From NCBI GenBank assembly GCA_016193335.1, contig JACPSK010000001.1, positions 111,926 through 175,925 of the forward strand: 64,000 bases of DNA. The letters run 5' to 3'. The translations under genes and the position numbers were made by a program. Numbering within the stretch: position 1 is the first letter of the stretch; each line of letters begins with the position of its first letter. Shown one piece after another: positions 35,975-53,944 of this stretch. The notes under the pieces were generated by a model. The model was not told the origin of the DNA. It saw nothing but the letters and a program-made list of their open reading frames with translations, and made no database searches. Origin of the DNA: Candidatus Magasanikiibacteriota bacterium. Its GTDB lineage: Bacteria > Patescibacteriota > Patescibacteriia > Magasanikbacterales > UBA922.

Positions 35975-36589
35975 TTATTCTGCTCCTTGTTTCTCGCGCC
36001 ATTCTGTTTCTAAAAGCGACCAGCATGCAAAGTCAAAAAAACCTTCTTCTATATGTATTGCTTCTCTTTTTTCCCCCTCTTGGGTCCACCCAAGCTTTGG
36101 CATAATCGCGTTGAAAGAGGGATTCGGAGATTCTGCCCAGATACGGTGCAGACCCAAATCATCAAAACAAACGGCAGTGGCCAAGTCTATAGCTTCACCC
36201 GCGTATCCTTTGCCCCACTCGGATTTATCTCCAATCATTATAGAACACTCAGCGCTTCTATTTTCTTCATCTATGGCATTGAGCGAAATATTGCCGATAT
36301 GTTTTTCGCTATCTTTCAGGATGATGGCCATATGAAGATCTTTGGTTTCCTCCGCATATCTCAGAAAATCCAAAAGATCCTGTTCTGATGAAGTCTTATT
36401 TCTGCGCCGCGTGTATCGTTGTACTTCTTTATCGTTCAACCATGAGAGATATTGGGGACTGAAAAAATCTTTTGAAAGTTTAAAAAGGCAAAGCCTTTTG
36501 CCCTCACGAATACATTTTCGAGAACTTTGATGTGAGGAGCAGCGCCCTGCTTGCTTTTCTTTTTTCTGTTGATCAAGAAATGTGTTCAT
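35975..36589 (-). CDS. GNAT-family N-acetyltransferase
   Basis: HIGNISLNAIDEENRSAECSIMIGDKSEWGKGYAGEAIDLATAVCFDDLGLHRIWAESPNPSFNAIMPKLGW: acetyl-CoA binding motifs A/B. Confidence 0.7.
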   Translation of the reverse strand: MNTFLDQQKKEKQAGRCSSHQSSRKCIREGKRLCLFKLSKDFFSPQYLSWLNDKEVQRYTRRRNKTSSEQDLLDFLRYAEETKDLHMAIILKDSEKHIGNISLNAIDEENRSAECSIMIGDKSEWGKGYAGEAIDLATAVCFDDLGLHRIWAESPNPSFNAIMPKLGWTQEGEKREAIHIEEGFFDFACWSLLETEWREKQGAE

Positions 36590-38106
36590 ACCTCTAAGGC
36601 TTTATGTAAACGTTTGTATACGCGCAAGGCGTTTGTTTTGTATATCTTCTCCAAAATATCTTCATCCAAGTTTGAACTCACTATTTTGCCGATAGACCAG
36701 GCCGGAGTCATAAGCGGACCATCGGCCGCATATAAAACCCGATCAGCGCCAAGCTCTTTTATCACCTTTGCCACGTCACTTTCACCGCGATGGGCATAGC
36801 TCGCGCTTATATCGACAACCAAATTTTCGATGCCTTTAAACTCGGGCATACGATCCGCCGTTATATGCGCAATAACAAACTGAACTTTTGGAAAAGCCCG
36901 AGCGGCTCCTGCCGCTCCCGTTTTGTGAGCCAAAATCGGCCAATCATGTTCTTCGGCCCAGCGCAGCATGGGGAGATATCGTTCATCATCAAGACCGGCC
37001 GGATAATAGTCTTGAATGGTTTTAATTCCCACGAAAGAAGGATTATTTTTGTATTTTTCCAATTCCTCCAAAGATTCCTCAACTCGTGTGGGGTCATAAA
37101 CAAGATAGCCAAAAATCCTTGGATCTTGTCGAGTTAATTCATTGGTGTTCGCGTTCCCCTGGCTCATATCATAATTAAGCGCCAATATGGAAGAAGATAT
37201 GACTGCTTCATAATGAAAATCGTCCAATACCTTCTTGAGCGAAGCCGCGTCAGTCTTTGGTTCGATTATATCCCAGCCTTCAGCGTGCCAATGTGTGTCT
37301 ATCTTCGGCCGTTCAATATGATCGAAGCCATATACATTTTTGTCTTCGGCAGACTCTGTTGAAGTATTCTCTGCCACTGAAAAAATACCGGCCAGTGTTC
37401 CATAAGATATCTGTTCCTTGTCTTTAACAGAAAGTTCGGCTGTATCCACCAGAAAATGGCCGCAGGACTCGTATACCACCGGCATATTGCTGGCGAGATA
37501 CAGTCTCTCGGTTCCGATTTTCTCTGCGAGATAAGCGACTCCGCCGAGTTGGACCAGATTACTGACATCAAAATAAATATGCGGCATGAGACTCGCTATG
37601 GTAATAACATCGGCCGTGTTGAGATATCCCCCTCCCCTCACCCATCTGATGAGAACCGGCGTTTTAAGCTCAGCCACCGCGTCCGCCGTCTCGGACAAAT
37701 CATCAAGGCTCGCAATAGCGATTTGTATGGGAAGTCCGGCTTTTGAAATTCGTTTCACCAATGCGCGGAATGTGTAATGCGTGCTCTTCCAAAATTGATA
37801 ATGAAGAAAAAAACTTACGCCGCGGAAACCCTGCCCAGCCAACGTTTCGATATAGTCCGATCCAATATCATAGTGCTGAGGATTGATTACTGCCATGGGC
37901 AGGCATCTGTTTGGATACAGACGAGAAAGTTCCAGTGTTTTGCGGTTGCCCTCGTACATATCAAAAAAAATGGCCTCAAGATTTGTGCTTAGACCCATAC
38001 GCGTGTTTGTCCTATCCATCATGGAAAGTACGCGTTCATTACTAAACTCAAGACCGTACTTCGGCTCCCTGCCAAAAAAAACACCGCCGTCAAAACGCTG
38101 TATCAT
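36586..38106 (-). CDS. Tandem amidohydrolase-2 (TIM-barrel metal-dependent hydrolase) domains; the N-terminal copy is degenerate
   Basis: C-terminal half: IDTHWH (HxH), VIAHIT, AADGP. N-terminal half has the same topology (ends LYLASNMPVV) but lacks HxH. Start at MIQRF gives an ATGA overlap with the upstream gene. Confidence 0.6.
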   Translation of the reverse strand: MIQRFDGGVFFGREPKYGLEFSNERVLSMMDRTNTRMGLSTNLEAIFFDMYEGNRKTLELSRLYPNRCLPMAVINPQHYDIGSDYIETLAGQGFRGVSFFLHYQFWKSTHYTFRALVKRISKAGLPIQIAIASLDDLSETADAVAELKTPVLIRWVRGGGYLNTADVITIASLMPHIYFDVSNLVQLGGVAYLAEKIGTERLYLASNMPVVYESCGHFLVDTAELSVKDKEQISYGTLAGIFSVAENTSTESAEDKNVYGFDHIERPKIDTHWHAEGWDIIEPKTDAASLKKVLDDFHYEAVISSSILALNYDMSQGNANTNELTRQDPRIFGYLVYDPTRVEESLEELEKYKNNPSFVGIKTIQDYYPAGLDDERYLPMLRWAEEHDWPILAHKTGAAGAARAFPKVQFVIAHITADRMPEFKGIENLVVDISASYAHRGESDVAKVIKELGADRVLYAADGPLMTPAWSIGKIVSSNLDEDILEKIYKTNALRVYKRLHKALEV

Positions 38107-39260
38107 AGACGTTTGTCCCAAATATTATCCTTTACCCATTGACCATATTCATTTTTCACCCATACGCGAGGATCTCTAAAACGATCACAAATTTTTTCGA
38201 ATTCTGAGCGAGGCATATCCACCATATCGAGCCAGGCTCCGATATCTCCCGGGACGACATGATCATAATTTCTAACCATTTCAATGCCCTGGTCTCGGGT
38301 GAGTATACCATTTCGTATATCGCGGCACGCGTGGTCCGTTGCTCTGCCATAACCGAATTTTATATACTTCAAATAATCGTGAACGCCGTTATCGTGAATA
38401 TCATTGAGATTGGAATCATTTCGATAGGTTCGGTCAAAAGGCTTGTCATAAAATTCAAATCCATACAAATCAACCATCAGTTTGGTATGTTCATGCTGTT
38501 TCCACCCGAAATAGTTTGAAATAAAAAGACCGCGCAACCCCACCCGTTCTATTTCTTCATCACTCGGATACTTGGCCCACAAAAGATCTTTTTCGCTCAA
38601 TCCAGTATCTTCTCCCACAAAATCGTACCAATCATAGCCTCTAAGGCTATGCTCTTTCCTGTATTTGGCGGTAAACTCCACCAAATCGTTGTATGAATGC
38701 ATGCCTCCCATGTTCATGAATCCGTGTTCTCCCCAGATGATAAGCGGAATATTGTACTTTACCGCGACGATAATGGGAGTCGTAAACATGCCGCAATGGC
38801 AATGCCAATTGGGATCACCCATTTTCATGAATCCGGCAAGATTGAGTTTTTTCAAAACACTGACGCTGGGAGTAAATTCAATGTAATCCACATCAAAAAC
38901 TTCTTTCATGCGCTGGATATTGCGCATGCCGACTGCGGTATGATTATTCTCACGATACGTAACCAAAAGCGGTTTCAGTCCGTATTCTTTGGTTATAATA
39001 TGGGTTTGATAAAAACTGTCTTTCCCGCCGCTCACCGGTATAACGCAATCATAACGGGATCCGTCTTTTGATCTCAGCTCTTGTACAAGGTCCCCAAACA
39101 ATTTTTTTCTCTTATCCCAGTCAACAGATTCTTGTTCGTCGTATGTTCTGCAGCCAGTACAGACGCCATTTGTATCAAAAGTAAGTGGAGTAGCGGCAAC
39201 ACCAGGATAGACGCATCTGGCGCAGTATTGCATTTTCGGAGGATTGATCATAGATATCAA
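38103..39260 (-). CDS. pseA: N-acetyl sugar amidotransferase (PseA/WbpG/WbuX family PP-loop ATPase)
   Basis: 385 aa. N-terminal Cys-rich Zn ribbon CARCVYPGVAATPLTFDTNGVCTGC; PP-loop SGGKDS; immediately upstream of the HisF- and HisH-like partner genes (WbuZ/WbuY arrangement). Confidence 0.8.
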   Translation of the reverse strand: MISMINPPKMQYCARCVYPGVAATPLTFDTNGVCTGCRTYDEQESVDWDKRKKLFGDLVQELRSKDGSRYDCVIPVSGGKDSFYQTHIITKEYGLKPLLVTYRENNHTAVGMRNIQRMKEVFDVDYIEFTPSVSVLKKLNLAGFMKMGDPNWHCHCGMFTTPIIVAVKYNIPLIIWGEHGFMNMGGMHSYNDLVEFTAKYRKEHSLRGYDWYDFVGEDTGLSEKDLLWAKYPSDEEIERVGLRGLFISNYFGWKQHEHTKLMVDLYGFEFYDKPFDRTYRNDSNLNDIHDNGVHDYLKYIKFGYGRATDHACRDIRNGILTRDQGIEMVRNYDHVVPGDIGAWLDMVDMPRSEFEKICDRFRDPRVWVKNEYGQWVKDNIWDKRL

Positions 39261-39347: not shown

Positions 39348-40133
39348 TCAACGCACGGGCAAAGCATGTTCTTTGAGTTTCTTTTTCGCCCGAATATAAG
39401 CGTTTTCCGTAAAATTGAATATATTCCCCGCGGCCACGGCAGAAGCAGAAGTCCTGCTCATGACTTCCACAAAATCATCAAAACTCCCAGCCCCTCCGCA
39501 AGCGATAACTGGAATTGACAAGGCCGCGGAAACTTCGTTGATATAATGAATATCATAGCCTCGAGCCGTGCCGTCTCTATCTATTGAATTGAGGAAAATT
39601 TCTCCTGCTCCCAAAGATTCGACTTTTTTTGCGTATTCAATCGGATTTCCATGGACCAAGGTCCTCCCATTATCTATATACATGGAGTGCAGCCCGCCTT
39701 CTTCTAAAATATCAATGCCAACCACTATGCATTGGCTCCCGTATTTATCTGCTACCGCGCTGATAAGCCGGGGGTCCTTGTACGCGCCGCTATTTATGAT
39801 AACTTTATCAGCCCCGTTGGCAATGTACTCGTCCACTTGTGCAAGTCCATTTATTCTGCCCCCGAAGGTAAGCGGCATAAAACTTTTTTCCGCAATAGTT
39901 CTGAGAATTGCTATGACATCTGATTCACGTTTTATTTTATGGTCATCACGTTTTAAATCATGGCTTCCTTCTCGTGTAATGTCCACATAAATAAGTTCGT
40001 CCGAATTCCAATCAGTAAGCCGCTCCAATTGATTGATGGGATTGCCAAATTCCCTGAAATCAACAAAACCTTCGCTCCTTACAATCAATCCATTTTTTAA
40101 AAATAAAACAGGTATAAGTCTTTTTTTGAGCAT
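39348..40133 (-). CDS. Imidazole glycerol phosphate synthase cyclase-subunit homologue (HisF-like, WbuZ-type)
   Basis: MLKKRLIPVLFLKNGLIVRSEGF...: (beta/alpha)8 HisF pattern. No other his genes present, so this is the glycan-pathway paralogue. Confidence 0.85.
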   Translation of the reverse strand: MLKKRLIPVLFLKNGLIVRSEGFVDFREFGNPINQLERLTDWNSDELIYVDITREGSHDLKRDDHKIKRESDVIAILRTIAEKSFMPLTFGGRINGLAQVDEYIANGADKVIINSGAYKDPRLISAVADKYGSQCIVVGIDILEEGGLHSMYIDNGRTLVHGNPIEYAKKVESLGAGEIFLNSIDRDGTARGYDIHYINEVSAALSIPVIACGGAGSFDDFVEVMSRTSASAVAAGNIFNFTENAYIRAKKKLKEHALPVR

Positions 40134-40135
40134 AT

Positions 40136-40772: not shown

Positions 40773-41408
40773 TTATGTTTTTTCCAACAAAAACATGGAG
40801 TCCACATTTTCGCTATTCAAATAGCCGTATCTTTTTTCTTTGACTAAGCGAAGATTCGGAAAAAACTCGCGGTACAAAGCGCTGAAATCCCCTTTCCAGA
40901 GACGGTCCTGGTTGCCGCGGTATTCGATGGCTGTATGTTGAGAACTAAAATATTCAAAACCCCAAATATATTTCTTGCTGACGCGATATATTTCAGACAT
41001 AAAAGCCCGAATATCATCTGGCGAAACGTGTATCAAGACCCCTGAAGTGAAGACGAGGTCAAAAAAAACGTCTTTAAAAGGAATATCAAAGCCCGAACCC
41101 TGTATTATATTTATATGTTTGCTCAATTCCCGGGCTTTCTGCGCCGCGTATTCTTGAATTTCGATACCGTACAAAGGACCTTTTCCTTGAGACTGAAGAA
41201 GATTCAGCTGGTTTCCTATGTTGCATCCCACTTCAAGCACTGGGCCGAGCGATAAGCCGTTCAGGCACTCTGAGTTCATACTGGAGCGGCTTATTCCGTA
41301 TGTTGTTTCATAAAAAGCATCCAATTCGCTTGGAGTGCTATACGCGTTTCGATCCGAATAATCTTTGCCGAACTGGGAAGTCCAAAAATCTTCCTGAGGC
41401 GTGGTCAT
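40773..41408 (-). CDS. Class I SAM-dependent methyltransferase
   Basis: LEVGCNIGNQL (motif I). Overlaps the neighbouring genes by 4 nt. Confidence 0.65.
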   Translation of the reverse strand: MTTPQEDFWTSQFGKDYSDRNAYSTPSELDAFYETTYGISRSSMNSECLNGLSLGPVLEVGCNIGNQLNLLQSQGKGPLYGIEIQEYAAQKARELSKHINIIQGSGFDIPFKDVFFDLVFTSGVLIHVSPDDIRAFMSEIYRVSKKYIWGFEYFSSQHTAIEYRGNQDRLWKGDFSALYREFFPNLRLVKEKRYGYLNSENVDSMFLLEKT

Positions 41409-42088
41409 AGTGAACTTTTTTGTGCTTCGAGTATTTTTCGTACCGCTTCAAAATCTGCCGGTTCATCCACATCTACATTTTCTCCCTGTTCCATTGGGAG
41501 TACATCGATCTTATCCGCGACGACCTGTTTTTTCAAAATAGAAGTCTTTGTCAAAAATATGGCACCATTAAGTTTAAACAAAGGCGTCATCTCTTGCCTA
41601 TTGGTAAGAACTTTTGGGTACAAACGCTCATAACCGCCTTCCACTTTCGTCCAATACTGTCCATAGTCAAAAAAACCACTGACCACAGAATCAGAATCTC
41701 TTGAAAGAGCCATGTTAACGGCTTCCTCAATGCGCCGCGGCGAGAGCAAAGGAGAAGTTGGATACACCAACAATACATAATCCGGAATATAACGTTCTTC
41801 TCTTTCGAGATATTCGACCGCGTGTTGCAAAACCGGAAGGGTCGCCACGTGGTCTTCGGCCAATTCTTTGGGACGCAAAAAAGGCACTTCAGCGCCATAT
41901 TGCCTGGCAACAGCCGCGATGCCCTCATCCTCAGTGGACACCATAACTCTGTCAAGCAGAGATAAGGAACGAACAGTCTCTATAATATAGCCAATCATGG
42001 GCTTGCCAGCGAGTTCCTTGATATTCTTGCCAGGAATACCCTTTGAGCCGGCACGGGCCGGGATAATCGCGATAATAGTTTTTTTCAT
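41405..42088 (-). CDS. pseF: CMP-nonulosonic acid synthetase (acylneuraminate cytidylyltransferase family, PseF/NeuA-like)
   Basis: MKKTIIAIIPARAGSKGIPGKNIKELAGKPMIGYII: the CTP-transferase-3 N-terminal signature. Confidence 0.8.
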   Translation of the reverse strand: MKKTIIAIIPARAGSKGIPGKNIKELAGKPMIGYIIETVRSLSLLDRVMVSTEDEGIAAVARQYGAEVPFLRPKELAEDHVATLPVLQHAVEYLEREERYIPDYVLLVYPTSPLLSPRRIEEAVNMALSRDSDSVVSGFFDYGQYWTKVEGGYERLYPKVLTNRQEMTPLFKLNGAIFLTKTSILKKQVVADKIDVLPMEQGENVDVDEPADFEAVRKILEAQKSSL

Positions 42089-42101: not shown

Positions 42102-43103
42102 TTATTCTGTCTCGTGAAATCCGTCTACAAAACGCATCAAAGTCTCTCGATCAAGCCACTGTGTATTGGTTTCACTCCCAAAATAAAAGCGTTCCGGAAG
42201 CGGCCTGCCTTCTGAGTAAGCCTCAGCATCCCACCAATCGTGCAGAGGTAAAACCACGAAATGATCATCAAATTCTTGCGTGTGTCTGGCCTCTTCCGGA
42301 GTTATCAATACTTCATGCAATTTTTCTCCGGGGCGGATGCCGATAATTTTGAGAGAGCATTCGGGCGCGAGATGAGTGATCATATCCTTAACTTTCATGC
42401 TCGGAATTTTCGGCACAAATATCTCTCCGCCGCGCATCTTCCCGAGCATACCCAATACAAAGGCCACGCCTTGATCCAGCGTCATCCAAAATCTTGTCAT
42501 CATCTCGTGAGTCAAGGTAATTTCACCGCTACCTTTTTGCTGTTTAATAAGAGAAACCAAGCTGCCGCGGCTTCCAAAAACATTGCCATAACGAACCACG
42601 CTTAAGGTAGGCCTGCCCACGGCATAAGCATTCGCGCTTATCATCAATTTTTCCGCGCACAATTTTGTGGCCCCGTACAAATTTGCGGGATTCGCGGCCT
42701 TGTCAGTGGAAATAAGCAATACCCTCTCAACCTTATTTTCCACTGAGGCCGAAACTACGTTTTGCGTGCCCAATATATTGGTCTTTATAGCTTCGAAGGG
42801 ATTGTATTCCAAAGCAGGTACTTGTTTTAAGGCGGCGGCGTGGATAATGAAATCAACGCCATTGAAAGCGGTTTTAAGACGTTCAAAATCACGCACATCC
42901 CCGATAAAAAAACGAAGACGCTTTTCAGGATCAGAAATCTGCGCTTTCATTTCCGATTGTTTGAGTTCATCTCTGCTGAAAACAATAATCCTCTTCGCTT
43001 GGCTCTGCTCCAAGAGCCTGCGTACACAGCGCTGTCCAAAAGAACCGGTGCCTCCGGTGATAAGGATAGATTTATTGTTCAAAAAATCAAAGACTGGATT
43101 CAT
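42102..43103 (-). CDS. pseB: UDP-GlcNAc 4,6-dehydratase (PseB/FlaA1/CapD family)
   Basis: KSILITGGTGSFG and STDKAANPANLYGATK are hallmark PseB motifs; 333 aa. Confidence 0.8.
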   Translation of the reverse strand: MNPVFDFLNNKSILITGGTGSFGQRCVRRLLEQSQAKRIIVFSRDELKQSEMKAQISDPEKRLRFFIGDVRDFERLKTAFNGVDFIIHAAALKQVPALEYNPFEAIKTNILGTQNVVSASVENKVERVLLISTDKAANPANLYGATKLCAEKLMISANAYAVGRPTLSVVRYGNVFGSRGSLVSLIKQQKGSGEITLTHEMMTRFWMTLDQGVAFVLGMLGKMRGGEIFVPKIPSMKVKDMITHLAPECSLKIIGIRPGEKLHEVLITPEEARHTQEFDDHFVVLPLHDWWDAEAYSEGRPLPERFYFGSETNTQWLDRETLMRFVDGFHETE

Positions 43104-47473: not shown

Positions 47474-48520
47474 TTACAGAACATCATAGTTAAATAAACA
47501 TACCCCCTCTTTTTCTCGAACTTTTTTGAAACCGGCCTGAGCAAATAAACCCAGAGAAGCAATATTTTCTTTTTTTACCTGCGCACGAATATGACGAAGC
47601 GCGGGGTAATCATTCGTGTATTGTTGGATACCTATTCTTAATCCGCGTATTCCATATCCGCAAGCCCTAAAATCTTTGGCAATGCTAATGCTCAATTCAG
47701 CGCTTCCGTCTTTTTCTTCACTGAGATCAAAACGAATCTGGCCTACGGGAATACCTTCATCTTCAAACAGATATAAAGTCCGATCTTTATCTTTTAGCAC
47801 GCCGTTCAACCACGCAAGATGATCTTCCCATGTTACCGGTTCAGGCGTAAAAAAATACATATAAGTGCTCGGATCGTTTCTCCACCGAAAGAGCATTTGA
47901 GCGTCTGCTTCATTAGCCAGCCGACAACTGAGCTTATGCCCAAGACATTTGATCCCGCTTTGAGGTGAAGCAAGATGCTCTTTATATAATTTTGACTTCT
48001 TTATCTCGTCATCTAAAATTTCTCGAACTGTCTGAGAACGCCCACCCGGAACATAATCCATTTCAAAATGAGCTCCTTGATTTACTATTCTCCCCTGCCA
48101 GTTAATTTCTTGAACGCGTTTAAGAAAAGTAAGAAATGCTCTCAGCTGATGATCAGTGGAACCGACAAGTAACATTTTCTTCCAGTTAAGAGCCAGTGCC
48201 CTATCAATCACATGCAGAGCTTGATCGCGCGTATTCATGGAATGATCATCCACCATAATGGCCCCTTCCGTCACACCTTGATCTGTAAACCACCTCTTGA
48301 TTTCATCAAGTGGAACTTCTTCCTGGCCAGGCCTCTGGCCTTTCCCAACGAGTATATTGTTCCCTGAAAGCAAAATAAGAGGGGCGTAATGAGCATTGTA
48401 GAGCTCCAATACTTTTGGACAACGATCAAAACGATCCCCATGCAGCAAAACAATAACATCCGATTTCTCGGCTGTCTGAGACATTATTTTCTTTTGCAAT
48501 AGCTCTAGAAGAGCATCCAT
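47474..48520 (-). CDS. Fusion protein: N-terminal DUF218 (YdcF/SanA-like) domain plus C-terminal GNAT acetyltransferase (PseH-like)
   Basis: N-terminal VIVLLHGDRF...MVDDHSMNTRDQALHV...LLVGSTDHQLRAF (DUF218 pattern). C-terminal LANEADAQMLFRWRNDPSTYMYFF...EDHLAWLN...IPVGQIRFD (PseH-type GNAT). Confidence 0.65.
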   Translation of the reverse strand: MDALLELLQKKIMSQTAEKSDVIVLLHGDRFDRCPKVLELYNAHYAPLILLSGNNILVGKGQRPGQEEVPLDEIKRWFTDQGVTEGAIMVDDHSMNTRDQALHVIDRALALNWKKMLLVGSTDHQLRAFLTFLKRVQEINWQGRIVNQGAHFEMDYVPGGRSQTVREILDDEIKKSKLYKEHLASPQSGIKCLGHKLSCRLANEADAQMLFRWRNDPSTYMYFFTPEPVTWEDHLAWLNGVLKDKDRTLYLFEDEGIPVGQIRFDLSEEKDGSAELSISIAKDFRACGYGIRGLRIGIQQYTNDYPALRHIRAQVKKENIASLGLFAQAGFKKVREKEGVCLFNYDVL

Positions 48521-48526
48521 AGCGTA

Positions 48527-49198
48527 TCAAGCGATTTTTCGTACCAGATGAAAAGCTTCCGCGTATTTCAAACCTGATTCCAGTCCGCGAAACTGCGCAA
48601 GTATTCTAAGACCTTCTGCTGAGCGTGGATGAGGATATTCTCTCATTTCAGACTCATACATACTTAACGCTTGAATTTTCTGGTCCATCGTCGCTTCAAT
48701 ATCATGGTAAACCGTGGGCATGAATGTCTTATGGTCTTTGCTCTGCCACTCGGTGGATGAGAGCGTTTCAAAAGTCAAAATTTCTCGCGGCGCCTTATTA
48801 TTGCAAGGTCTGGAAGCGGTAAGAACCGCCTGGAATGTTAAACGATGATCCACATTCAGATCATATTCATGATGTGTGTATACGATATCAGGTCTCTCTG
48901 CGGCAATGAAACGCTCCACTTCTTTGGCGATCTCAAGGAGCGGGACTGAATCAAAAGCATTATCTCTGAAGGAAAGAAAACGCATATCCGTGAATCCGAC
49001 AATTTCCCCTGCTCGCTTCGCCTGAGCTTGCAAAGCTCCCAATTCTTTTGTGTCGGCTCCGTCTCTGGACAAAACACCCTGGCCCAAAATAAGCGCGCGA
49101 ACATTATCACCTGCTCGCACATGGTTAATAAGCGTCCCGGCAAGACCAAGAAGTTCATCATCCGGATGAGCGGCCACTACAAGAATATTTTTAGCCAT
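48527..49198 (-). CDS. PIG-L/LmbE-family N-acetyl-sugar deacetylase
   Basis: MAKNILVVAAHPDDELLGLAGTL (HPDDE metal site), later HxxH and DH motifs. Confidence 0.85.
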   Translation of the reverse strand: MAKNILVVAAHPDDELLGLAGTLINHVRAGDNVRALILGQGVLSRDGADTKELGALQAQAKRAGEIVGFTDMRFLSFRDNAFDSVPLLEIAKEVERFIAAERPDIVYTHHEYDLNVDHRLTFQAVLTASRPCNNKAPREILTFETLSSTEWQSKDHKTFMPTVYHDIEATMDQKIQALSMYESEMREYPHPRSAEGLRILAQFRGLESGLKYAEAFHLVRKIA

Positions 49199-49202: not shown

Positions 49203-49907
49203 TTATTTTTTACGAATAATTACTTGGGCGCTGACAGAATCTCCCTGATTCTTTGCAGCCTTAAATTCAAACCGAGCCGCTTTGGTTTCCAAAAAAGCCG
49301 ATGGATAACCTTCCGCGTCAAGCATGCGTATGTAATCATATATCTTCTCAAGATCCTCCAGGTTTTCCATATTCCCTTCCTCCGGTTTTCTGCGCGAAAA
49401 TTCGACCACTTCACCTTTTTGAGGCTTGGGTTCTGGCTCTTGAGAAACAATCTCAGGAATCATGTCTTGAAATACGAGATCCGAAGCGCGGCGAAAAATA
49501 TCTTCAGCAGAACCGGCAAGCGAAAGAGATTTTTTCATATATATGTCACCCGTGTCCATGCCTTCGGCAACTTTAAGAGCGGAAACCTTGGTCTCTTTTA
49601 ACCCGCGAACAATTAAATTCTGCAAAGGACTTCCTCCCCTCCCATAGGGCAAGTCAGTCATATGAAATACCACACATTCGTAGGATTCATGCAATTCTCT
49701 TCTAATAATCCAGGACCAATGTGGAAAAAAAATATAGCGCGGGTTAATCTCTCGCACGCGCTCCGCGCTCAATTCATCTTTATGATCAATAAGAAACCAA
49801 TGATTTTGTGAATCAGAAGAACAAAACTTTTTAAAATTTTCTATATTCCACGATTTGACGGTAACCACTAAATAATTCATAAAAATTATTTTTGAATCAT
49901 ATCCCAC
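49203..49907 (-). CDS. Formyltransferase-domain protein (second copy in the locus)
   Basis: VVFHMTDLPYGRGGSPLQNLIVRG...DTGDIYMK: the formyl_trans_N HxSLLPxxRG-like motif plus Asp. Confidence 0.65.
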   Translation of the reverse strand: MGYDSKIIFMNYLVVTVKSWNIENFKKFCSSDSQNHWFLIDHKDELSAERVREINPRYIFFPHWSWIIRRELHESYECVVFHMTDLPYGRGGSPLQNLIVRGLKETKVSALKVAEGMDTGDIYMKKSLSLAGSAEDIFRRASDLVFQDMIPEIVSQEPEPKPQKGEVVEFSRRKPEEGNMENLEDLEKIYDYIRMLDAEGYPSAFLETKAARFEFKAAKNQGDSVSAQVIIRKK

Positions 49908-50989
49908 ATGAGCGGGGTCCCGCGTTCAATATCCTGTGTAGCCATTTTTCCAATAATTTCTTCATAATATTTCGGTTCGAGCCCGAAACGAGGGCGTATC
50001 ACCCGCATGTTTTCTTCATTAAATGTGTCTCCCTTTTTTATTTCTCGGACCGCAAAAATAGATCTCTGGTACTTGGCGTTATCTTGCTCTGCCTTACATT
50101 TTACGCCGTATTTTACTTCGCCGAGCGCGCTTTCGGCTTTACGGATTGCATGCACCAAAGCTTTGAAATGGTCAGGTCCCAAGGAAAAATCCCCGTCTAT
50201 CACTTTGTCGTCCGTTGAAGCGACCATATGTTTTTCCAAAACTGAAGCGCCCATCATTACGGCTTGGAGAGGAATTTCAGTGCCTGTATTATTATCGGAA
50301 AAACCAACAACCGTGCCAAAACGTTCCCGCAAATCGAGCATGGTTTTCAGATTGGCGTCTTCTGGTTTTGGACTTTTCGAATATGCGGTGGTGCAATGCA
50401 AAAGAACAATATCTTTTGTTCCATATGAACGGAGCGTTTCCACGGCCAATTCTATTTCCTGGAGCGTGGAAAAGCCAACAGACATAATAACCGGCTTGCC
50501 TGTTTTTGCCACACGTTTCAAAAAGGGAATATGAGTGGTTTCGTATGAAGCGACTTTGTAGAGGGGAACTCCAAGCCCTTCGAGAAAATCAACCGCAGTC
50601 TCTTCATAAGGAGTTGAAAAAAAGACCATCCCAAGCTCTTCGGTGATTTTTTTCAAATCCGCGTGCCAGGCATAAGGCGTCTGGGCCTTTTGGTACAAAG
50701 CATACAAGGACATCCCCTTCCATGTGTCAGGGTTATCTTCCCCCCCGATCATGTCGCCTACCATGAAGTATCTTTTATCCGAATCAATAGTCATGGTATC
50801 TGGCGTATAGGTTTGTATTTTTACCGCGTCAGCCCCGCTTGCGGCAGCGGCCCGTATAATTTCCACTGCTTTATCAAAATTGCCATTATGATTCGCGGAA
50901 AGTTCTGCTATAACAAAACAAGGATAGCCCGGTCCTATCTCGCGCGCTCCCTTGGGGGTCTGAATACTGAAATGAGGTTGATGTTCCAT
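49886..50989 (-). CDS. pseI: Nonulosonic acid synthase (NeuB/PseI/LegI family, TIM barrel plus C-terminal SAF domain)
   Basis: FVIAELSANHNG, KIQTY, GFSDNNTG, C-terminal SAF/antifreeze-like RVIRPRFGLEP; 367 aa. Confidence 0.9.
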   Translation of the reverse strand: MEHQPHFSIQTPKGAREIGPGYPCFVIAELSANHNGNFDKAVEIIRAAAASGADAVKIQTYTPDTMTIDSDKRYFMVGDMIGGEDNPDTWKGMSLYALYQKAQTPYAWHADLKKITEELGMVFFSTPYEETAVDFLEGLGVPLYKVASYETTHIPFLKRVAKTGKPVIMSVGFSTLQEIELAVETLRSYGTKDIVLLHCTTAYSKSPKPEDANLKTMLDLRERFGTVVGFSDNNTGTEIPLQAVMMGASVLEKHMVASTDDKVIDGDFSLGPDHFKALVHAIRKAESALGEVKYGVKCKAEQDNAKYQRSIFAVREIKKGDTFNEENMRVIRPRFGLEPKYYEEIIGKMATQDIERGTPLMWDMIQK

Positions 50990-51004
50990 ATCTCGCCCGA
51001 TATA

Positions 51005-52171
51005 TTAGAAAGAATATAATACTTTCCTTAAGGTTTCAATCACTTCATCCTGCTCCCTCTTCGTCAAGTCCGGATATATAGGCAAACTCATGATGGATTC
51101 GTAAAAAGCTTCTGCCTTGGGAAACATGCCAACCGAAAATCCGAGGTCCTCATAAAAGGGATGCGTATGCACGGGAATATGATGTATCTGAACTCCGATC
51201 CCTGCTTCACGCAATCTTTTTGCCACTTCGTCTCTATTGGCTGCCATGTTTTTTGCAAGACGTATCACAAACAAATGCCAAGATGATTGGTGATCCACGT
51301 CATCTCGCGACGGAAGAATCACAGTATTGCAGTCCTTGAGCGCTTCATGATAATAAGAAGCTATATGCCTTCTTTTTTCTATAAACAAATCCAAACGTCT
51401 TAACTGACTCAGGCCAAGGGCGCTCTGGATATCGGTAAGCCGATAATTATAGCCAAGGTCCTGCATCTCGAAATACCAATCCCCTCTCGAAGCATGCTTA
51501 AAATTCTGTTTTGTCACTCCGTGAGTTATGAAACGCTTCATCGCGGCATAATAATCTTCGTTGTCGGTTAATATGGCTCCGCCTTCTCCGGTAGTGATAC
51601 TTTTTACTGGATGAAAACTGAAGGTGGACAAATCGTTAAGAGCACCTATCGGCTTTCCCTTGTATCGAGCCCCCAGAGCTTGACAAGCGTCTTCGATTAC
51701 CAACAATCCATGTCTCTTTGCTATTGTTTTTATCTCATCGAGATCGGCAGGTCTTCCGGTGTAATCAATGGGTACAATCGCTTTGGTTCTTTCAGTTAGA
51801 GCGGCTTCTATAAGACTGGCATCAATGTTGCCTGTATTTTCGTCTATATCCACAAAAACCGGCTTGGCACCAACAAAAATACCCGCGTTTGTCGTGGCCA
51901 CGAAGGTCATGGGCGAAGTAATAAACTCATCATCAGGACCTAAGCCTCCGGCTATGAACGCGGCATGCAAAGCTGCCGTTCCGTTTGAAACCGTAACCGC
52001 GTAAGACGCCCCGCAATAGGATGCGAGCGCCTTCTCAAACTCAATAACATGAGGCCCCTGCGTAAGCCAATCAGAACGCAGGACCCGAGTTAGCGCCTCT
52101 ATGTCTTCTTCATTAATTGATTGGCGTCCGTAGGGTATCATAGAAATAAATTCATCTTCTTTAATGTTCAA
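51005..52171 (-). CDS. pseC: DegT-family aminotransferase, PseC-type (UDP-4-keto-6-deoxy sugar 4-aminotransferase)
   Basis: MIPYGRQSINEEDIEAL is the PseC/LegC N-terminal pattern (true start probably this Met at 52141). FHPVKSITTGEGG is the PLP-Lys context. Confidence 0.85.
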   Translation of the reverse strand: MNIKEDEFISMIPYGRQSINEEDIEALTRVLRSDWLTQGPHVIEFEKALASYCGASYAVTVSNGTAALHAAFIAGGLGPDDEFITSPMTFVATTNAGIFVGAKPVFVDIDENTGNIDASLIEAALTERTKAIVPIDYTGRPADLDEIKTIAKRHGLLVIEDACQALGARYKGKPIGALNDLSTFSFHPVKSITTGEGGAILTDNEDYYAAMKRFITHGVTKQNFKHASRGDWYFEMQDLGYNYRLTDIQSALGLSQLRRLDLFIEKRRHIASYYHEALKDCNTVILPSRDDVDHQSSWHLFVIRLAKNMAANRDEVAKRLREAGIGVQIHHIPVHTHPFYEDLGFSVGMFPKAEAFYESIMSLPIYPDLTKREQDEVIETLRKVLYSF

Positions 52172-53357
52172 GAGCTAATACTGTTCTTATGGCCCCATCA
52201 AGCTTATAAATTTGTTTTTCAGGATTCATCTCGTCCTCTCCCAGCCGTTCGTAACATTTCCGAGACAGATTTTTTCTAAGTTCTGAGCTGGAGCCCAATC
52301 TTTCTATGATTCGGGCAAGAGCGTCTACATCTCGATAAGGAAAGTACAAAGCCCCGCCTTTGGCGTTCCACTCCAGGCCTCCGCCTCCCGGCAAAATGGA
52401 CGGAACTCCAAAAGCGAGAGCGTAAATAAGAGAAATCGAAGTACCGGCCGGCCACCAATCTGCTTGTATAAATATATCGGCCTTCTTATAATTTTGATAC
52501 AACTGTTCTTTTGAAACCCAACCCGGAAGTTCAACATATTTTTCCAAATTCAAATCTTTTATCATGGCCCGTACATGGGTTTCTTCAGGTCCTTTGCCGC
52601 CCAGCACAAGATGAAAGGCTTCTTTATTTTTGAGACGGGAAAAAGCTGAAAGCAAAATATCAAAACCTTTGCCCGGGGACATTCTGCTCGAATAAAACAA
52701 AATAATAGGGCCGCTGTGATCAGCGCGCTTGGAATATGAATCTTCGGCAATGCCAGCGTCTCGCATTATCTTCTTGGTATCTATAGGGTCCCCAACCACT
52801 ACATCCGTTTCAGCATGACGCAAACCAAAATCTTCATACATGGTTCTCAAGGTAGGACTTACGAATGAAAAAAGGTCTATACGATTCGCCAAAAAAACGC
52901 CGAAAACACGTTCCGTAAGCCAACGCGTTTTTGCTTTGATTTTTTTCAAAAATGAAAGCTTCAGCCGCGGAAATAAACTTGATTCGTATTGTTCCCAACA
53001 GCTCAAATATTGATTGAAAAAAGCCACCACTGGTTTCTTTCCGCCCAAAAATCTGTATAAACCGGCGCTATACATAAACATATGGGCCTCAACGTGGAAT
53101 ATATCTGCGTCGTTCTCATATCTTCGTAAAAGCAGAAACATGGCTTTCTGCAAACTAAACATACTTGGAGAGTCAAGCCGTTCTTCTATAACTCTGTATG
53201 GAAGTTCAAAAGGAATGTCATTCTCAGAAGAAAACGCAGTGATGACCGTTACTTTGTTACCGAATTTTTGTAAAGTGCGGATAATAAGATCAATTTCCTC
53301 GACCGAACCCCCGGCCGAACGAAAATTAAGCTTCGAAGTGACAATATAAATGTTCAT
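52161..53357 (-). CDS. Glycosyltransferase family 4
   Basis: 398 aa GT-B. C-terminal LVLGGKGPE...ADIFIQ...GTSISLIYALAFGVPSI. Confidence 0.75.
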   Translation of the reverse strand: MNIYIVTSKLNFRSAGGSVEEIDLIIRTLQKFGNKVTVITAFSSENDIPFELPYRVIEERLDSPSMFSLQKAMFLLLRRYENDADIFHVEAHMFMYSAGLYRFLGGKKPVVAFFNQYLSCWEQYESSLFPRLKLSFLKKIKAKTRWLTERVFGVFLANRIDLFSFVSPTLRTMYEDFGLRHAETDVVVGDPIDTKKIMRDAGIAEDSYSKRADHSGPIILFYSSRMSPGKGFDILLSAFSRLKNKEAFHLVLGGKGPEETHVRAMIKDLNLEKYVELPGWVSKEQLYQNYKKADIFIQADWWPAGTSISLIYALAFGVPSILPGGGGLEWNAKGGALYFPYRDVDALARIIERLGSSSELRKNLSRKCYERLGEDEMNPEKQIYKLDGAIRTVLALEH

Positions 53358-53944
53358 AGATCAGAATTCTTCCCATAACCCAGCTTTCGCGCATAAGACA
53401 ACATTTGGTCTTTGGGGCGTTTCTTGATAGGACGCGCGGGAGATCCTGCATAAATGGTCCAAGGTTCGGTATTTTCTTTTAATACGGACAAAGCGCCGAG
53501 CACAGAACCTTGAGCCAGCGTTAGACCAGGAAAGATGACGGCATTTGCTCCTACATTCGCAAAATCTTCCAATACTATGGGTTCGCGTTTCACGCGTGTG
53601 TACTCGGGATCAATGCCCGGCGCGCTGATGAGGCCGTCTCCGAGAAAACGGTCTGATCCGCATAAGAGTTTAGCCCCCAAAGCTATAGTGGTAAAGTCAC
53701 CCATTTTGAAATAAGCTTCGGCACCGCCGATAACGCAGACATAAGGCCCTATATGAATGTAATTGCCAATATCAGCGGCCGTGCTTATATAAAAACCCGA
53801 ATCAATCGCCACATGATTTCCTATGCTGACCAAATGAGGACGACGTATCTCTACCCGCTCACTTATAAAAACATCAATCCCCACCGACTTTAACCGGGAA
53901 CTGTCGTAACGAGGAGTAATTTCAGGCATTTTAGGCAAGCTCAT
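53354..53944 (-). CDS. Hexapeptide-repeat (left-handed beta-helix) sugar N-acetyltransferase (PglD/NeuD/WbpD-like)
   Basis: Start at MSLPKMPEITPRY (ATG complement 53944-53942). Repeats IGNHVAIDSGFYI, IGNYIHIGPYVCVIGG, ANVGANAVIFPGLTLAQGSVLGA. Confidence 0.8.
   Translation of the reverse strand: MSLPKMPEITPRYDSSRLKSVGIDVFISERVEIRRPHLVSIGNHVAIDSGFYISTAADIGNYIHIGPYVCVIGGAEAYFKMGDFTTIALGAKLLCGSDRFLGDGLISAPGIDPEYTRVKREPIVLEDFANVGANAVIFPGLTLAQGSVLGALSVLKENTEPWTIYAGSPARPIKKRPKDQMLSYARKLGYGKNSDL

What the first reader, a model, noticed from the sequence alone, without database searches (positions are those of the whole stretch)
36586..53944. Complete pseudaminic-acid-type nonulosonic acid module with acetamidino, formyl and deacetylase decoration enzymes
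Within ~17 kb on one strand lie PseB (42102-43103), PseC (51005-52171), a PseH-type GNAT (C-terminal half of 47474-48520), PseI (49886-50989) and PseF (41405-42088). Around them sit a PseA/WbpG-type amidotransferase with HisH/HisF-like partners (38103-40735, the WbuX/Y/Z triad that converts N-acetyl to N-acetimidoyl), a PIG-L deacetylase (48527-49198), a formyltransferase (49203-49907), an LbH acetyltransferase (53354-53944), a SAM methyltransferase (40773-41408) and a tandem amidohydrolase-2 protein (36586-38106). This combination predicts a heavily modified Pse derivative (for example 5-acyl-7-acetamidino or 7-formamido, possibly O-methylated) rather than plain Pse5Ac7Ac. The canonical PseG step is not clearly represented; the only candidate is the uncertain GT-B-like gene 43224-44216.
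Basis: partly seen in the sequence, partly recalled or inferred. Interest (0 to 1): 0.6.

Follow-up and report, generated by a model that had tools for sequence, protein, structure and literature searches.

The report
Pseudaminic acid pathway lacking PseG
This is a real gene cluster for the bacterial sialic-acid-like sugar pseudaminic acid in an uncultured ultrasmall (CPR) bacterium. It lacks the usual UDP-removing enzyme PseG and carries instead an uncharacterised DUF218 domain fused to the acetyltransferase, which probably does that step.

Summary
PseB, PseC, PseI, the WbuX amidotransferase, HisH and the Pse-associated methylase all pass curated NCBIfam cut-offs. The PseF-like and PseH-like genes score below their cut-offs, and PseG is absent.

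In Polynucleobacter and Leptospira it sits beside a true PseG, at the end of a separate conserved cassette (CMP-transferase, GFO oxidoreductase, DegT, GNAT, this protein). It is therefore unlikely to replace PseG.

Its subfamily lies in 34 related loci, mostly CPR MAGs, and 31 of them carry NeuB/PseI. It is fused in different lineages to GNAT, formyltransferase, PseC-like, PseI and PseF domains. It occupies PseG's position in syntenic operons. It was never seen with PseG: 0/30 loci against 37/47 PseI-anchored controls.

I infer that DUF218 is a non-homologous PseG substitute. This rests on gene context only, with no biochemistry. PIG-L plus the 1ZGH-type formyltransferase-like gene form an accessory pair that also occurs with true PseG. 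The amidotransferase triad and methylase travel with Pse genes. The module extends down to about 32930.

The parts
42102..43103 (-). PseB, UDP-GlcNAc 4,6-dehydratase (5-inverting)
   Evidence: TIGR03589 449.0 bits > cut-off 407.75; LegB model only 67 bits
51005..52171 (-). PseC, UDP-4-amino-4,6-dideoxy-beta-L-AltNAc transaminase (public gene call 51005-52141)
   Evidence: TIGR03588 494.7 > 423.5; LegC 258 < 420; gene call
47936..48520 (-). DUF218/YdcF-like domain (residues 1-195 of the 348-aa protein). Proposed UDP-sugar hydrolase that replaces PseG (inferred).
   Evidence: PF02698 44.5 bits. AF2 model pLDDT 92.9, best PDB match E. coli YdcF 3CA8, then HUP-class nucleotide-binding folds. Context, fusion and exclusion evidence.
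47474..47935 (-). PseH-like GNAT domain (residues ~196-348 of the same protein), N4-acetyltransferase
   Evidence: PF13302 56.4 bits. TIGR03585 PseH 49.0 (below cut-off 93.1). PDB hits MJ1062 (E 9e-10) and C. jejuni PseH 4XPK (E 9.5e-5). Next-closest homologues outside the DUF218 subfamily are PseG-GNAT fusions.
49886..50989 (-). PseI, pseudaminic acid synthase
   Evidence: TIGR03586 412.9 > 340.25; NeuB model 282.9 < 399.65
41405..42088 (-). PseF-like CMP-nonulosonate synthetase
   Evidence: PF02348 90.6 bits; TIGR03584 151.6 (below cut-off 205.7) is the best family hit
49203..49907 (-). Formyltransferase-fold protein of the 1ZGH type (Formyl_trans_C_2). Proposed N5 re-acylation partner of PIG-L.
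   Evidence: PF21553 78.5 bits. Strong match (E 6e-82, 277.7 bits) over 223 residues to PDB 1ZGH. Catalytic Asn replaced by Val, His and Asp kept.
48527..49198 (-). PIG-L/LmbE-type de-N-acetylase
   Evidence: PF02585 89.8 bits. Always paired with the 1ZGH-type gene after PseI in L009, L010, L013, L014 and L020, and found in PseG-containing clusters too.
38103..39260 (-). WbuX/PseA-type N-acetyl sugar amidotransferase (gene call 38103-39233)
   Evidence: TIGR03573 339.9 > 203.2
39348..40133 (-). HisF-like cyclase subunit (WbuZ-like)
   Evidence: TIGR03572 245.6 (below cut-off 299.7); PF00977 163 bits
40136..40807 (-). HisH-like glutaminase subunit (gene call 40136-40711)
   Evidence: TIGR01855 207.4 > 105.4
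40773..41408 (-). Pse-biosynthesis-associated SAM methyltransferase
   Evidence: TIGR03587 194.1 > 112.05. Sits beside WbuX/HisH/HisF in L017 and inside Pse operons in L024 and L028.
45784..47295 (+). KpsS/KpsC-type (Capsule_synth) glycosyltransferase, candidate pseudaminyltransferase (gene call 45802-47295)
   Evidence: PF05159 41.5 bits. Weak hit to the BFO_1060 glycosyltransferase model. Homologues flank Pse genes in L009, L019, L021, L030 and L034. KpsS1 of A. baumannii is a characterised KpsS-like Pse transferase, GT118 (PMC12887879).
44213..45736 (-). Wzx/MOP flippase
   Evidence: PF13440 218 bits; NF007773 171.8 bits
43224..44216 (-). Last gene of the conserved GFO-DegT-GNAT cassette; function unknown, possibly an epimerase or transferase.
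   Evidence: No Pfam, NCBIfam or PDB sequence hit. More than 1800 homologues. AF2 pLDDT 92.6; best folds are UDP-GlcNAc 2-epimerases (E 5e-9, TM ~0.6). Co-occurs with true PseG in L043 and L044.
36586..38121 (-). Amidohydrolase_2 protein with two matched stretches, role unknown (gene call 36586-38106)
   Evidence: PF04909 109.2 bits, 2 stretches. Conserved with its two downstream neighbours only in L010 (47% identity).
35975..36589 (-). Second GNAT acyltransferase (GNAT2)
   Evidence: PF13302 70.4 bits. Travels with DegT2, GFO and Unk330 in L020, L024, L030, L034, L035, L043 and L044.
35231..35953 (-). Second formyltransferase-fold protein (PurN/Fmt N-domain type)
   Evidence: PF00551 66.9 bits. 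Distant PseJ hit (6CI2, E 6e-5). Catalytic Asn replaced by Gly, His and Asp kept.
34180..35238 (-). GFO/IDH/MocA oxidoreductase
   Evidence: PF01408 59.4 bits; weak hit to archaeal UDP-GlcNAc 3-dehydrogenase (57 bits)
32930..34195 (-). Second DegT-family sugar aminotransferase (DegT2)
   Evidence: PF01041 289.9 bits. PseC model 209 (below cut-off 423). Best PDB relatives are BtrR, perosamine synthase, ArnB and KdnA.
52161..53357 (-). GT4 glycosyltransferase of the surrounding glycan locus
   Evidence: PF00534 81.7 bits
53354..54058 (-). Left-handed beta-helix acetyltransferase (gene call 53354-53929). No evidence linking it to Pse.
   Evidence: WcaF-family 51.7 bits, NeuD/PglB/VioB 47.1 bits, all below cut-offs

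Best explanation
The region is a pseudaminic-acid (Pse) biosynthesis, tailoring and transfer module inside a large surface-glycan locus of a Patescibacteria (CPR; NCBI label Candidatus Magasanikbacteria) MAG.

Steps shown by family membership:
- PseB converts UDP-GlcNAc to the 4-keto-6-deoxy-L-sugar.
- PseC aminates C4.
- PseI condenses the free hexose with PEP.
- A PseF-like enzyme makes the CMP-sugar.

Steps inferred:
- The 348-aa protein at 47474-48520 performs the two middle steps. Its C-terminal PseH-like GNAT N-acetylates the 4-amino group. Its N-terminal DUF218/YdcF-like Rossmannoid domain then removes UDP to release 2,4-diacetamido-2,4,6-trideoxy-L-altrose. That is the reaction normally done by the GT-B enzyme PseG, which is absent here.
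- PIG-L and the 1ZGH-type formyltransferase-like protein exchange the N5 acetyl inherited from GlcNAc, leaving either a free amine or a formyl group.
- WbuX/HisH/HisF turn an N-acetyl into an acetamidino group, and the TIGR03587 methylase modifies it or a hydroxyl.
- The KpsS-like enzyme transfers the sugar, and Wzx flips the lipid-linked unit.

The GFO/DegT2/GNAT2/second formyltransferase/GT-B 'Unk330' genes form a separate conserved cassette of unknown substrate.
For: Core enzymes: B, C and I are above the curated equivalog cut-offs, with the Leg and Neu models far below.

DUF218 as the PseG substitute:
1. Absence of PseG. There is no PseG in the 64-kb window or in any of 34 distinct DUF218-anchored loci. 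The HMM used does detect Polynucleobacter PseG (236 bits) and a divergent Leptospira PseG (99 bits). PseG is present in 37/47 PseI-anchored control loci of at least 9 kb, against 0/30 DUF218 loci (Fisher p=4e-13).
2. Context. 31/34 DUF218 loci contain NeuB/PseI, and in 20 it is adjacent or fused.
3. Pathway hole. Compact operons leave DUF218 as the only unassigned gene: L031 PseB-PseC-PseF-GNAT-DUF218-PseI, L026 PseB-PseC-PseF-PseI-[DUF218-GNAT]-WbuX-HisH-HisF, and L029 with a formyltransferase-like gene in place of the GNAT.
4. Fusions. The subfamily is fused to GNAT in both orders, to Formyl_trans_N, to a DegT aminotransferase, to PseI (L027), to a PseF-like domain (L025) and to an aldo-keto reductase (P0012). 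The next-closest relatives of the GNAT half are PseG-GNAT fusions (P0016 scores 167 bits on TIGR03590).
5. Synteny. Leptospira has AKR-CTP/AT3-PseG-GNAT-NeuB where CPR L018 has AT3-AKR-DUF218-GNAT-NeuB.
6. Fold. The domain has a nucleotide-binding Rossmannoid fold (YdcF, then pantothenate synthetase and cytidylyltransferase).

Tailoring:
- FmtC2 plus PIG-L recur directly after PseI, with or without PseG.
- KpsS1 is a characterised KpsS-like Pse transferase.
Against: - There is no biochemical evidence. No DUF218 protein has a known catalytic activity, and the PDB title for YdcF calls it an S-adenosyl-L-methionine-utilizing enzyme.
- I could examine only contigs, not whole genomes, so a PseG encoded elsewhere cannot be excluded.
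- The DUF218 loci are mostly one clade (CPR), so the 0/30 against 37/47 contrast is inflated by shared ancestry.
- In L034 and L035 both DUF218 and the epimerase-like Unk330 are present, so either could release UDP there.
- The PseF-like and PseH-like genes score below the curated cut-offs.
- Both formyltransferase-like proteins lack the catalytic Asn.
- The order and position (N5 or N7) of the tailoring steps are guesses.
Confidence: 0.6

Rival explanations
1. The GT-B protein at 43224-44216 (Unk330) is the PseG equivalent. DUF218 then has an accessory role.
For: It has a GT-B fold, like PseG. Its closest structures include hydrolysing UDP-GlcNAc 2-epimerases that release the nucleotide (SiaA 6VLC, NeuC 5XVS). 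It lies next to PseB in the window and within nonulosonate clusters in L010, L020, L024, L030, L034 and L035.
Against: In Polynucleobacter (L043) and Leptospira (L044) it co-occurs with a true PseG in the same cluster. There it is the last gene of a separate cassette, CTP_transf_3-GFO-DegT-GNAT-Unk330. It is absent from most PseG-less Pse operons (L009, L013, L014, L026, L028, L029, L031). PseG structures are not among its top 50 fold matches.
Confidence: 0.12
2. A conventional PseG is encoded elsewhere in the genome, outside the window. The DUF218 domain does something else in the pathway, for example a tailoring, regulatory or cofactor-binding role.
For: Only contigs were examined. YdcF is described as an S-adenosyl-L-methionine-utilizing enzyme, not a UDP-binding one (PDB title). 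10 of 47 control loci also lack a nearby PseG.
Against: 0/30 DUF218 loci carry PseG against 37/47 controls. DUF218 is fused to five different Pse-pathway domains and takes PseG's position in syntenic operons. One of the PseG-less controls (L047) itself has a divergent DUF218 next to a GNAT.
Confidence: 0.2
3. Most of the 'decoration' enzymes serve a second, unrelated amino sugar of the same glycan rather than Pse. These are GFO, DegT2, GNAT2, the second formyltransferase-like gene, Unk330 and perhaps the amidotransferase triad. The sugar would be, for example, a 2,3-diamino-2,3-dideoxy hexose or hexuronate, as in the WbpB/E/D/I/G pathway.
For: The combination of GFO, DegT, an acyltransferase and an epimerase-like GT-B protein mirrors WbpB/WbpE/WbpD/WbpI. 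Unk330's fold matches the UDP-2,3-diacetamido-2,3-dideoxy-glucuronate 2-epimerase 8SXW. GFO hits the archaeal UDP-GlcNAc 3-dehydrogenase weakly. WbpG-type amidotransferases act on such sugars (established knowledge).
Against: The cassette is always inside nonulosonate clusters and directly follows the CMP-transferase in L034, L035, L043 and L044. DegT2 is closer to BtrR, ArnB and KdnA than to WbpE. The local dehydrogenase is of the UDP-glucose type, not WbpA. WbuX/HisH/HisF occur in Pse operons that lack the cassette (L017, L026, L028, L029).
Confidence: 0.4

Closest known systems
Canonical CMP-pseudaminic acid pathway PseB-PseC-PseH-PseG-PseI-PseF (Campylobacter jejuni, Helicobacter pylori)
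   Same: PseB, PseC and PseI are equivalog-level members. A PseH-like GNAT and a PseF-like cytidylyltransferase are present. The overall reaction logic is the same.
   Different: No PseG (GT-B UDP-sugar hydrolase) is present. A DUF218 domain is fused to the GNAT in its place. PseH and PseF score below the curated cut-offs.
PseG-PseH (GT-B + GNAT) fusion proteins, e.g. P0016 (Saprospiraceae MAG), SpsG/RimL-type
   Same: Two-domain protein with a C-terminal GNAT that is the next-closest relative of the window's GNAT. It presumably channels steps 3 and 4.
   Different: The N-terminal partner is a ~195-residue YdcF-like Rossmannoid domain instead of the ~300-residue GT-B PseG. The two folds are unrelated.
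E. coli YdcF (PDB 3CA8) and the DUF218 family (SanA, ElyC)
   Same: Pfam PF02698 membership and best structural match (Foldseek E 1e-6).
   Different: Only 13-14% identity. This is a distinct subfamily with its own invariant motifs (D-x-I-x-x-L-x-G, SGNN, NT-x-x-Q, Q-x-RAFLTFL, NQ). It is always embedded in nonulosonate clusters. No catalytic function is established for any member.
PseJ (Anoxybacillus N-formyltransferase making Pse5Ac7Fo) and sugar N-formyltransferases
   Same: Formyltransferase fold with His and Asp retained. Located in a Pse cluster.
   Different: Both window proteins replace the catalytic Asn (Val in 49203-49907, Gly in 35231-35953). 49203-49907 belongs to the short 1ZGH/PF21553 type and is paired with a PIG-L deacetylase, which suggests N5 exchange rather than N7 formylation.
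PseA / WbuX-WbuY-WbuZ / WbpG acetamidino-forming amidotransferases
   Same: WbuX is above the cut-off, with HisH- and HisF-like partners adjacent. The triad is linked to Pse genes in many related loci.
   Different: The target nitrogen (N5 or N7) is unknown. The HisF-like subunit scores below the WbuZ cut-off.
KpsS1 (GT118) retaining pseudaminyltransferase of Acinetobacter baumannii
   Same: Capsule_synth/KpsS-type protein encoded inside a Pse cluster.
   Different: It was not compared directly with KpsS1. It is about 500 aa long and encoded on the opposite strand. Acceptor and linkage are unknown.
Nonulosonate cluster of Ca. Kuenenia stuttgartiensis (SugarBase preprint)
   Same: A deacetylase and a formyltransferase lie within the cluster. 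Measured CMP-sugars carry one free and one formylated amine, plus a +14 Da modification.
   Different: That cluster is described as legionaminic-type. Homology of its two enzymes to the window's was not tested.

Membership tests
Pseudaminic acid pathway | PseB equivalog (TIGR03589) above trusted cut-off | tested here: met
   449.0 vs 407.75
Pseudaminic acid pathway | PseC equivalog (TIGR03588) above trusted cut-off | tested here: met
   494.7 vs 423.5
Pseudaminic acid pathway | PseI equivalog (TIGR03586) above trusted cut-off, better than NeuB | tested here: met
   412.9 vs 340.25; NeuB 282.9 < 399.65
Pseudaminic acid pathway | PseH equivalog (TIGR03585) | tested here: not met
   49.0 vs 93.1. 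It is still the only NCBIfam hit, and the domain matches the PseH structure 4XPK.
Pseudaminic acid pathway | PseG equivalog (TIGR03590), GT-B UDP-sugar hydrolase | tested here: not met
   No TIGR03590 hit among the 28 window proteins scanned with NCBIfam. No hit of a validated custom PseG HMM in the six-frame window.
Pseudaminic acid pathway | PseF equivalog (TIGR03584) | tested here: not met
   151.6 vs 205.7. It is the best hit, and the CTP_transf_3 domain is present.
Pseudaminic acid pathway | Product has L-glycero-L-manno configuration (Pse) | not testable with these tools
   Needs NMR or MS of the sugar
WbuX/WbuY/WbuZ acetamidino triad | WbuX-family amidotransferase (TIGR03573) with adjacent HisH- and HisF-like subunits | tested here: met
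   WbuX 339.9 > 203.2; HisH 207.4 > 105.4. The HisF-like subunit is adjacent but scores 245.6 < 299.7 on WbuZ.
DUF218 / YdcF-like (PF02698) | Pfam gathering score and YdcF-like fold | tested here: met
   44.5 > 27.6. Foldseek best hit 3CA8, E 1.2e-6.
Sugar N-formyltransferases (PseJ, ArnA, WlaRD) | Catalytic Asn-x-His ... Asp triad | tested here: not met
   Asn replaced by Val (49203-49907) and by Gly (35231-35953). His and Asp are conserved in alignments to Fmt and PurN.
UDP-GlcNAc 2-epimerase family (for 43224-44216) | Sequence membership (Pfam Epimerase_2) and GT-B epimerase fold | tested here: inconclusive
   No Pfam or NCBIfam hit. Fold match E 5e-9, TM ~0.6, 12-13% identity.
KpsS1-type (GT118) pseudaminyltransferase (for 45784-47295) | Capsule_synth domain; specific relatedness to KpsS1; Pse-transfer activity | tested here: inconclusive
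   PF05159 41.5 > 20. Not compared with KpsS1. Activity is not testable here.

The most novel reading that the evidence does not exclude
The DUF218/YdcF-like fold is a previously unrecognised class of nucleotide-sugar hydrolase. On this reading the UDP-release step of pseudaminic acid synthesis has been invented independently at least twice: by GT-B PseG and by Rossmannoid DUF218. A third solution is possible, from xylose-isomerase-like TIM-barrel (AP_endonuc_2) domains found fused to GNAT or NeuB in other PseG-less clusters. If so, the activity would also give a first biochemical lead for the long-unexplained envelope phenotypes of the E. coli DUF218 proteins ElyC, SanA and YdcF.
Probability: 0.3. 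Interest if true: 0.8.

Novelty: new variant of a known kind. Interest (0 to 1): 0.6.

Why it matters
Pseudaminic acid is a surface sugar needed for flagellar assembly and virulence in several pathogens. Its six-enzyme pathway is treated as settled and is used for chemoenzymatic synthesis and as a drug target.

A widespread variant that lacks PseG would matter in four ways:
- It would assign a first catalytic function to a member of DUF218, a large family of unknown function that includes E. coli ElyC, SanA and YdcF.
- It would correct genome annotation: these clusters are called incomplete, and the fusion protein is named only 'GNAT family N-acetyltransferase'.
- It would provide a compact bifunctional enzyme for Pse synthesis.
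- It would show that ultrasmall CPR bacteria, whose surface chemistry is essentially unknown and probably mediates attachment to hosts, invest in elaborately N-modified sialic-acid-like sugars.

The 1ZGH structure, deposited as 'methionyl-tRNA formyltransferase', would also be re-assigned to nonulosonate tailoring.

Tried and rejected
- Sequence search of Unk330 against the PDB gave only a chance hit.
- Literature searches for DUF218 with pseudaminic, nonulosonic or legionaminic acid, for triamino nonulosonic acids, and for Pse in Patescibacteria found nothing relevant.
- I first read GFO, DegT2 and the dehydrogenase at 30165-31550 as a WbpA/B/E pathway. The dehydrogenase is of the UDP-glucose type (AglM/TuaD) and DegT2 is not WbpE-like, so that assignment is downgraded to one of two open readings.
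- I considered PIG-L, the 1ZGH-type protein and the amidohydrolase as possible PseG substitutes. I rejected them because the first two co-occur with true PseG in many control loci and the amidohydrolase recurs only in L010.
- I considered that the recurrent unassigned ORFs in related loci might hide a divergent PseG. Representatives turned out to be aldo-keto reductase, CTP_transf_3, radical SAM, metallophosphoesterase, methyltransferase and a second DUF218. One ~220-aa family has no Pfam hit and is too short for PseG.
- I did not verify the taxonomy of the window independently. It rests on the NCBI label of the identical protein and on the CPR labels of related loci.

Full report
**Observation**

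The coordinates agree with the gene calls of the public record that contains this sequence, GCA_964404105.1 contig CAYOIR010000002.1. NCBI names the identical protein as coming from a Candidatus Magasanikbacteria MAG.

These genes exceed the curated NCBIfam cut-offs:
- PseB, 449.0 against 407.75.
- PseC, 494.7 against 423.5.
- PseI, 412.9 against 340.25.
- WbuX, 339.9 against 203.2.
- HisH, 207.4 against 105.4.
- The 'pseudaminic acid biosynthesis-associated methylase' TIGR03587, 194.1 against 112.05.

The rival legionaminic and neuraminic models score far lower (LegB 67, LegC 258, NeuB 283, all below their cut-offs).

The cytidylyltransferase (PseF model 151.6 against 205.7), the HisF-like subunit (WbuZ 245.6 against 299.7) and the GNAT (PseH 49.0 against 93.1) are best hits below threshold. 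No protein in the window hits PseG.

Pfam shows that the N-terminal half of 47474-48520 is a DUF218 domain fused to the PseH-like GNAT. The module also continues beyond the given start. It includes a second GNAT (35975-36589), a second formyltransferase-fold gene (35231-35953), a GFO/IDH/MocA oxidoreductase (34180-35238) and a second DegT aminotransferase (32930-34195).

On the plus strand, 45784-47295 is a Capsule_synth (KpsS/KpsC-type) protein. That type includes the characterised pseudaminyltransferase KpsS1, family GT118 (PMC12887879).

The whole region, about 22-62 kb, is a surface-glycan locus. It holds an initiating phosphoglycosyltransferase, Wzx, several glycosyltransferases and further sugar-nucleotide enzymes. 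The left 22 kb holds housekeeping genes: IF-2, H+-pyrophosphatase and RNase Y.

The 330-aa protein at 43224-44216 has no Pfam, NCBIfam or PDB sequence match. It has more than 1800 homologues.

Its AlphaFold model (pLDDT 92.6) is a GT-B fold. The best matches are UDP-GlcNAc 2-epimerases, both hydrolysing and non-hydrolysing, and the UDP-2,3-diacetamido-2,3-dideoxy-glucuronate 2-epimerase (E about 1e-8, TM about 0.6). 'GT-B-like' is therefore correct.

In Polynucleobacter paneuropaeus (L043) and Leptospira yasudae (L044), however, the homologue lies in the same cluster as a true PseG. It is the last gene of a conserved cassette, CTP_transf_3-GFO/IDH/MocA-DegT-GNAT-Unk330, that follows PseG-GNAT-NeuB. 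My PseG HMM scores those two PseG genes at 236 and 99 bits.

The same cassette recurs in L020, L024, L030, L034 and L035. Most PseG-less Pse operons lack Unk330. It is therefore unlikely to be the PseG substitute.

**The PseG gap: the DUF218 domain**

A database search with the fusion protein found three further fusions, ten proteins carrying the DUF218 domain without a GNAT, and, as the next relatives of the GNAT half, PseG-GNAT fusions. One of these, P0016, passes the PseG cut-off at 167 against 153.55.

Gene neighbourhoods of three relatives show the same NeuB - 1ZGH-type gene - PIG-L - DUF218/GNAT string, or a stand-alone DUF218 inside a PseB/PseC/NeuB cluster.

A scan of one genome per species with the DUF218 alignment returned 32 loci. 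Almost all are Patescibacteria MAGs. Seven are labelled uncultured Gammaproteobacteria and one Woesearchaeota. Counting also the loci retrieved by protein look-up gives 34 distinct DUF218-anchored loci. Of these, 31 contain a NeuB/PseI homologue, and in 20 DUF218 is adjacent or fused to it.

None of these loci, and no reading frame of the window, matches the PseG HMM.

As a control I anchored a metagenome scan on PseI instead. PseG is present in 37 of 47 loci of at least 9 kb, and this DUF218 subfamily in none at E<=1e-5. The contrast, 37/47 against 0/30, gives Fisher p = 4e-13. That value is inflated by shared ancestry of the CPR loci.

One PseG-less control locus, L047, turned out to carry a divergent DUF218 (Pfam 65 bits) directly followed by a GNAT.

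Compact operons leave DUF218 as the only gene without an assigned step:
- L031: PseB-PseC-PseF-GNAT-DUF218-PseI.
- L026: PseB-PseC-PseF-PseI-[DUF218-GNAT]-WbuX-HisH-HisF.
- L029: the same as L026, with a stand-alone DUF218 followed by a formyltransferase-like gene in place of the fused GNAT.

The domain is fused, in different lineages, to:
- GNAT in either order.
- Formyl_trans_N.
- A DegT aminotransferase.
- PseI (L027).
- A PseF-like domain (L025).
- An aldo-keto reductase (P0012).

A profile search of 1.84 billion representatives finds 102 clusters at E<=1e-30. About half of the 45 best hits are fusion-length proteins of roughly 350 aa.

Synteny places DUF218 exactly where PseG sits. Leptospira has AKR-CTP/aminotransferase-PseG-GNAT-NeuB. 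CPR L018 has aminotransferase-AKR-DUF218-GNAT-NeuB.

The AlphaFold model of the domain (pLDDT 92.9) matches E. coli YdcF best, then HUP-class nucleotide-binding enzymes. That is compatible with binding a nucleotide sugar, but it does not show catalysis.

I conclude that the DUF218 domain is the non-homologous replacement of PseG, with moderate confidence of about 0.6. The conclusion rests on pathway-hole, fusion, synteny and exclusion arguments, not on biochemistry.

**Tailoring enzymes**

The 234-aa protein at 49203-49907 matches PDB 1ZGH very strongly (E 6e-82, 277.7 bits over 223 residues). 1ZGH is an entry deposited as 'methionyl-tRNA formyltransferase'.

Alignments show that the catalytic Asn of the N-x-H motif is replaced by Val, while His and Asp remain. 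The second formyltransferase-like protein (35231-35953) has Gly at that position. Formyl transfer is plausible but unproven.

The 1ZGH-type gene and PIG-L always occur as a pair just after PseI. They also occur in clusters that have a normal PseG and GNAT (L064, L079, L097, L115, L117). They are therefore an accessory pair.

The N5 acetyl of Pse is inherited from UDP-GlcNAc, so a deacetylase plus re-acylating enzyme is the logical way to alter N5 (inference). A preprint reports CMP-nonulosonates with one free and one formylated amine in Ca. Kuenenia, and a cluster with a deacetylase and a formyltransferase. PseJ shows that N7 formylation exists in Pse pathways (PMC11040635).

WbuX/HisH/HisF and the TIGR03587 methylase sit within Pse operons that lack any other amino-sugar genes (L017, L026, L028, L029). 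By analogy with PtmH in Campylobacter (mentioned in PMC13317340), the methylase may N-methylate the amidine rather than a hydroxyl.

The two-stretch amidohydrolase_2 protein is conserved with GNAT2 and the second formyltransferase-like gene only in L010. I cannot assign it a role.

**The second cassette**

GFO, DegT2, GNAT2 and Unk330 travel together across Betaproteobacteria, Spirochaetes and CPR, always in nonulosonate clusters and often right after the CMP-transferase.

DegT2 is nearer to BtrR, perosamine synthase, ArnB and the Kdo8N transaminase KdnA than to WbpE or PseC. The nearby dehydrogenase is of the UDP-glucose type.

Two readings remain open. The cassette may be a separate 2,3-diamino-sugar pathway with Unk330 as its 2-epimerase. 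Alternatively, it may oxidise, aminate and acylate the CMP-nonulosonate itself. I could not discriminate between them.

**Verdict**

As a Pse cluster with amidino, deacetylase and formyltransferase-like accessories, it is a new member of a known kind.

The replacement of PseG by a DUF218 domain, conserved across many CPR lineages, does not appear in the literature I could search. That makes it a new variant of the pathway and gives a testable first function for a member of a large family of unknown function.

Noticed in passing
L111 8679-9974; L053 11044-11802; L044 13699-15960: In PseI loci that lack both PseG and DUF218, a xylose-isomerase-like TIM-barrel domain (AP_endonuc_2) is fused to a GNAT directly upstream of PseI (L111) or sits directly downstream of PseI (L053). 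Leptospira has a CBS-NeuB-SAF-AP_endonuc_2 fusion. This may be a third solution to the same pathway step.
   Followed up: partly
window 32930-36589 and 43224-44216; L043 6496-10942; L044 6472-10879; L034, L035: There is a conserved five-gene cassette, CTP_transf_3 - GFO/IDH/MocA - DegT - GNAT - uncharacterised GT-B protein (a family of more than 1800 proteins with no Pfam model). It is found in nonulosonate clusters of Betaproteobacteria, Leptospira and CPR. Its substrate is unknown, and it could aminate the CMP-nonulosonate.
   Followed up: partly
window 49203-49907: This protein matches PDB 1ZGH very strongly (E 6e-82), an entry deposited as methionyl-tRNA formyltransferase. The family lacks the catalytic Asn and sits next to PIG-L in pseudaminic acid clusters, so the PDB name is probably a misannotation.
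   Followed up: partly
L039 6682-10579; L042 6105-10276; L033 2067-5396: Some CPR loci carry two NeuB paralogues and two DUF218 paralogues, arranged DUF218-PseI-GNAT-NeuB2-DUF218. It looks as if two parallel nonulosonate pathways each have their own DUF218.
   Followed up: no
L015, L018, L022, L023 (upstream of DUF218); P0012: An aldo-keto reductase is repeatedly adjacent to DUF218, and fused to it in P0012. The same reductase family is present in the Polynucleobacter and Leptospira Pse clusters. Its role in nonulosonate synthesis is unknown.
   Followed up: no
L034 7542-8246; L035 10515-11165; L037-L040: A ~220-aa protein family without any Pfam match lies immediately downstream of DUF218 in six of the more distant loci.
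   Followed up: no
window 13303-14382 (+): An IS3-type transposase (rve integrase core domain) lies between housekeeping genes (H+-pyrophosphatase, RNase Y), upstream of the glycan locus.
   Followed up: no
window 54099-57058: A sugar C-methyltransferase (Methyltransf_13/14 domains, plus strand) lies next to an NDP-sugar epimerase/dehydratase and a nucleotidyltransferase. This suggests that a separate branched or methylated deoxysugar is made in the same locus.
   Followed up: no
window 58489-61217: An amine-oxidase-like flavoprotein is followed by a PMT_2/ArnT-like GT-C glycosyltransferase at the upstream end of the locus. An oligosaccharyl- or lipid-linked-sugar transferase in a CPR bacterium may indicate protein or cell-wall glycosylation.
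   Followed up: no
window 25394-27517: A 707-aa subtilase (Peptidase_S8) with C-terminal FG-GAP repeats is embedded among the glycan genes.
   Followed up: no
window 31729-32637 (+): A 302-aa ORF on the opposite strand, between the dehydrogenase and DegT2, has no Pfam or NCBIfam match. I did not check whether it is a real gene.
   Followed up: no
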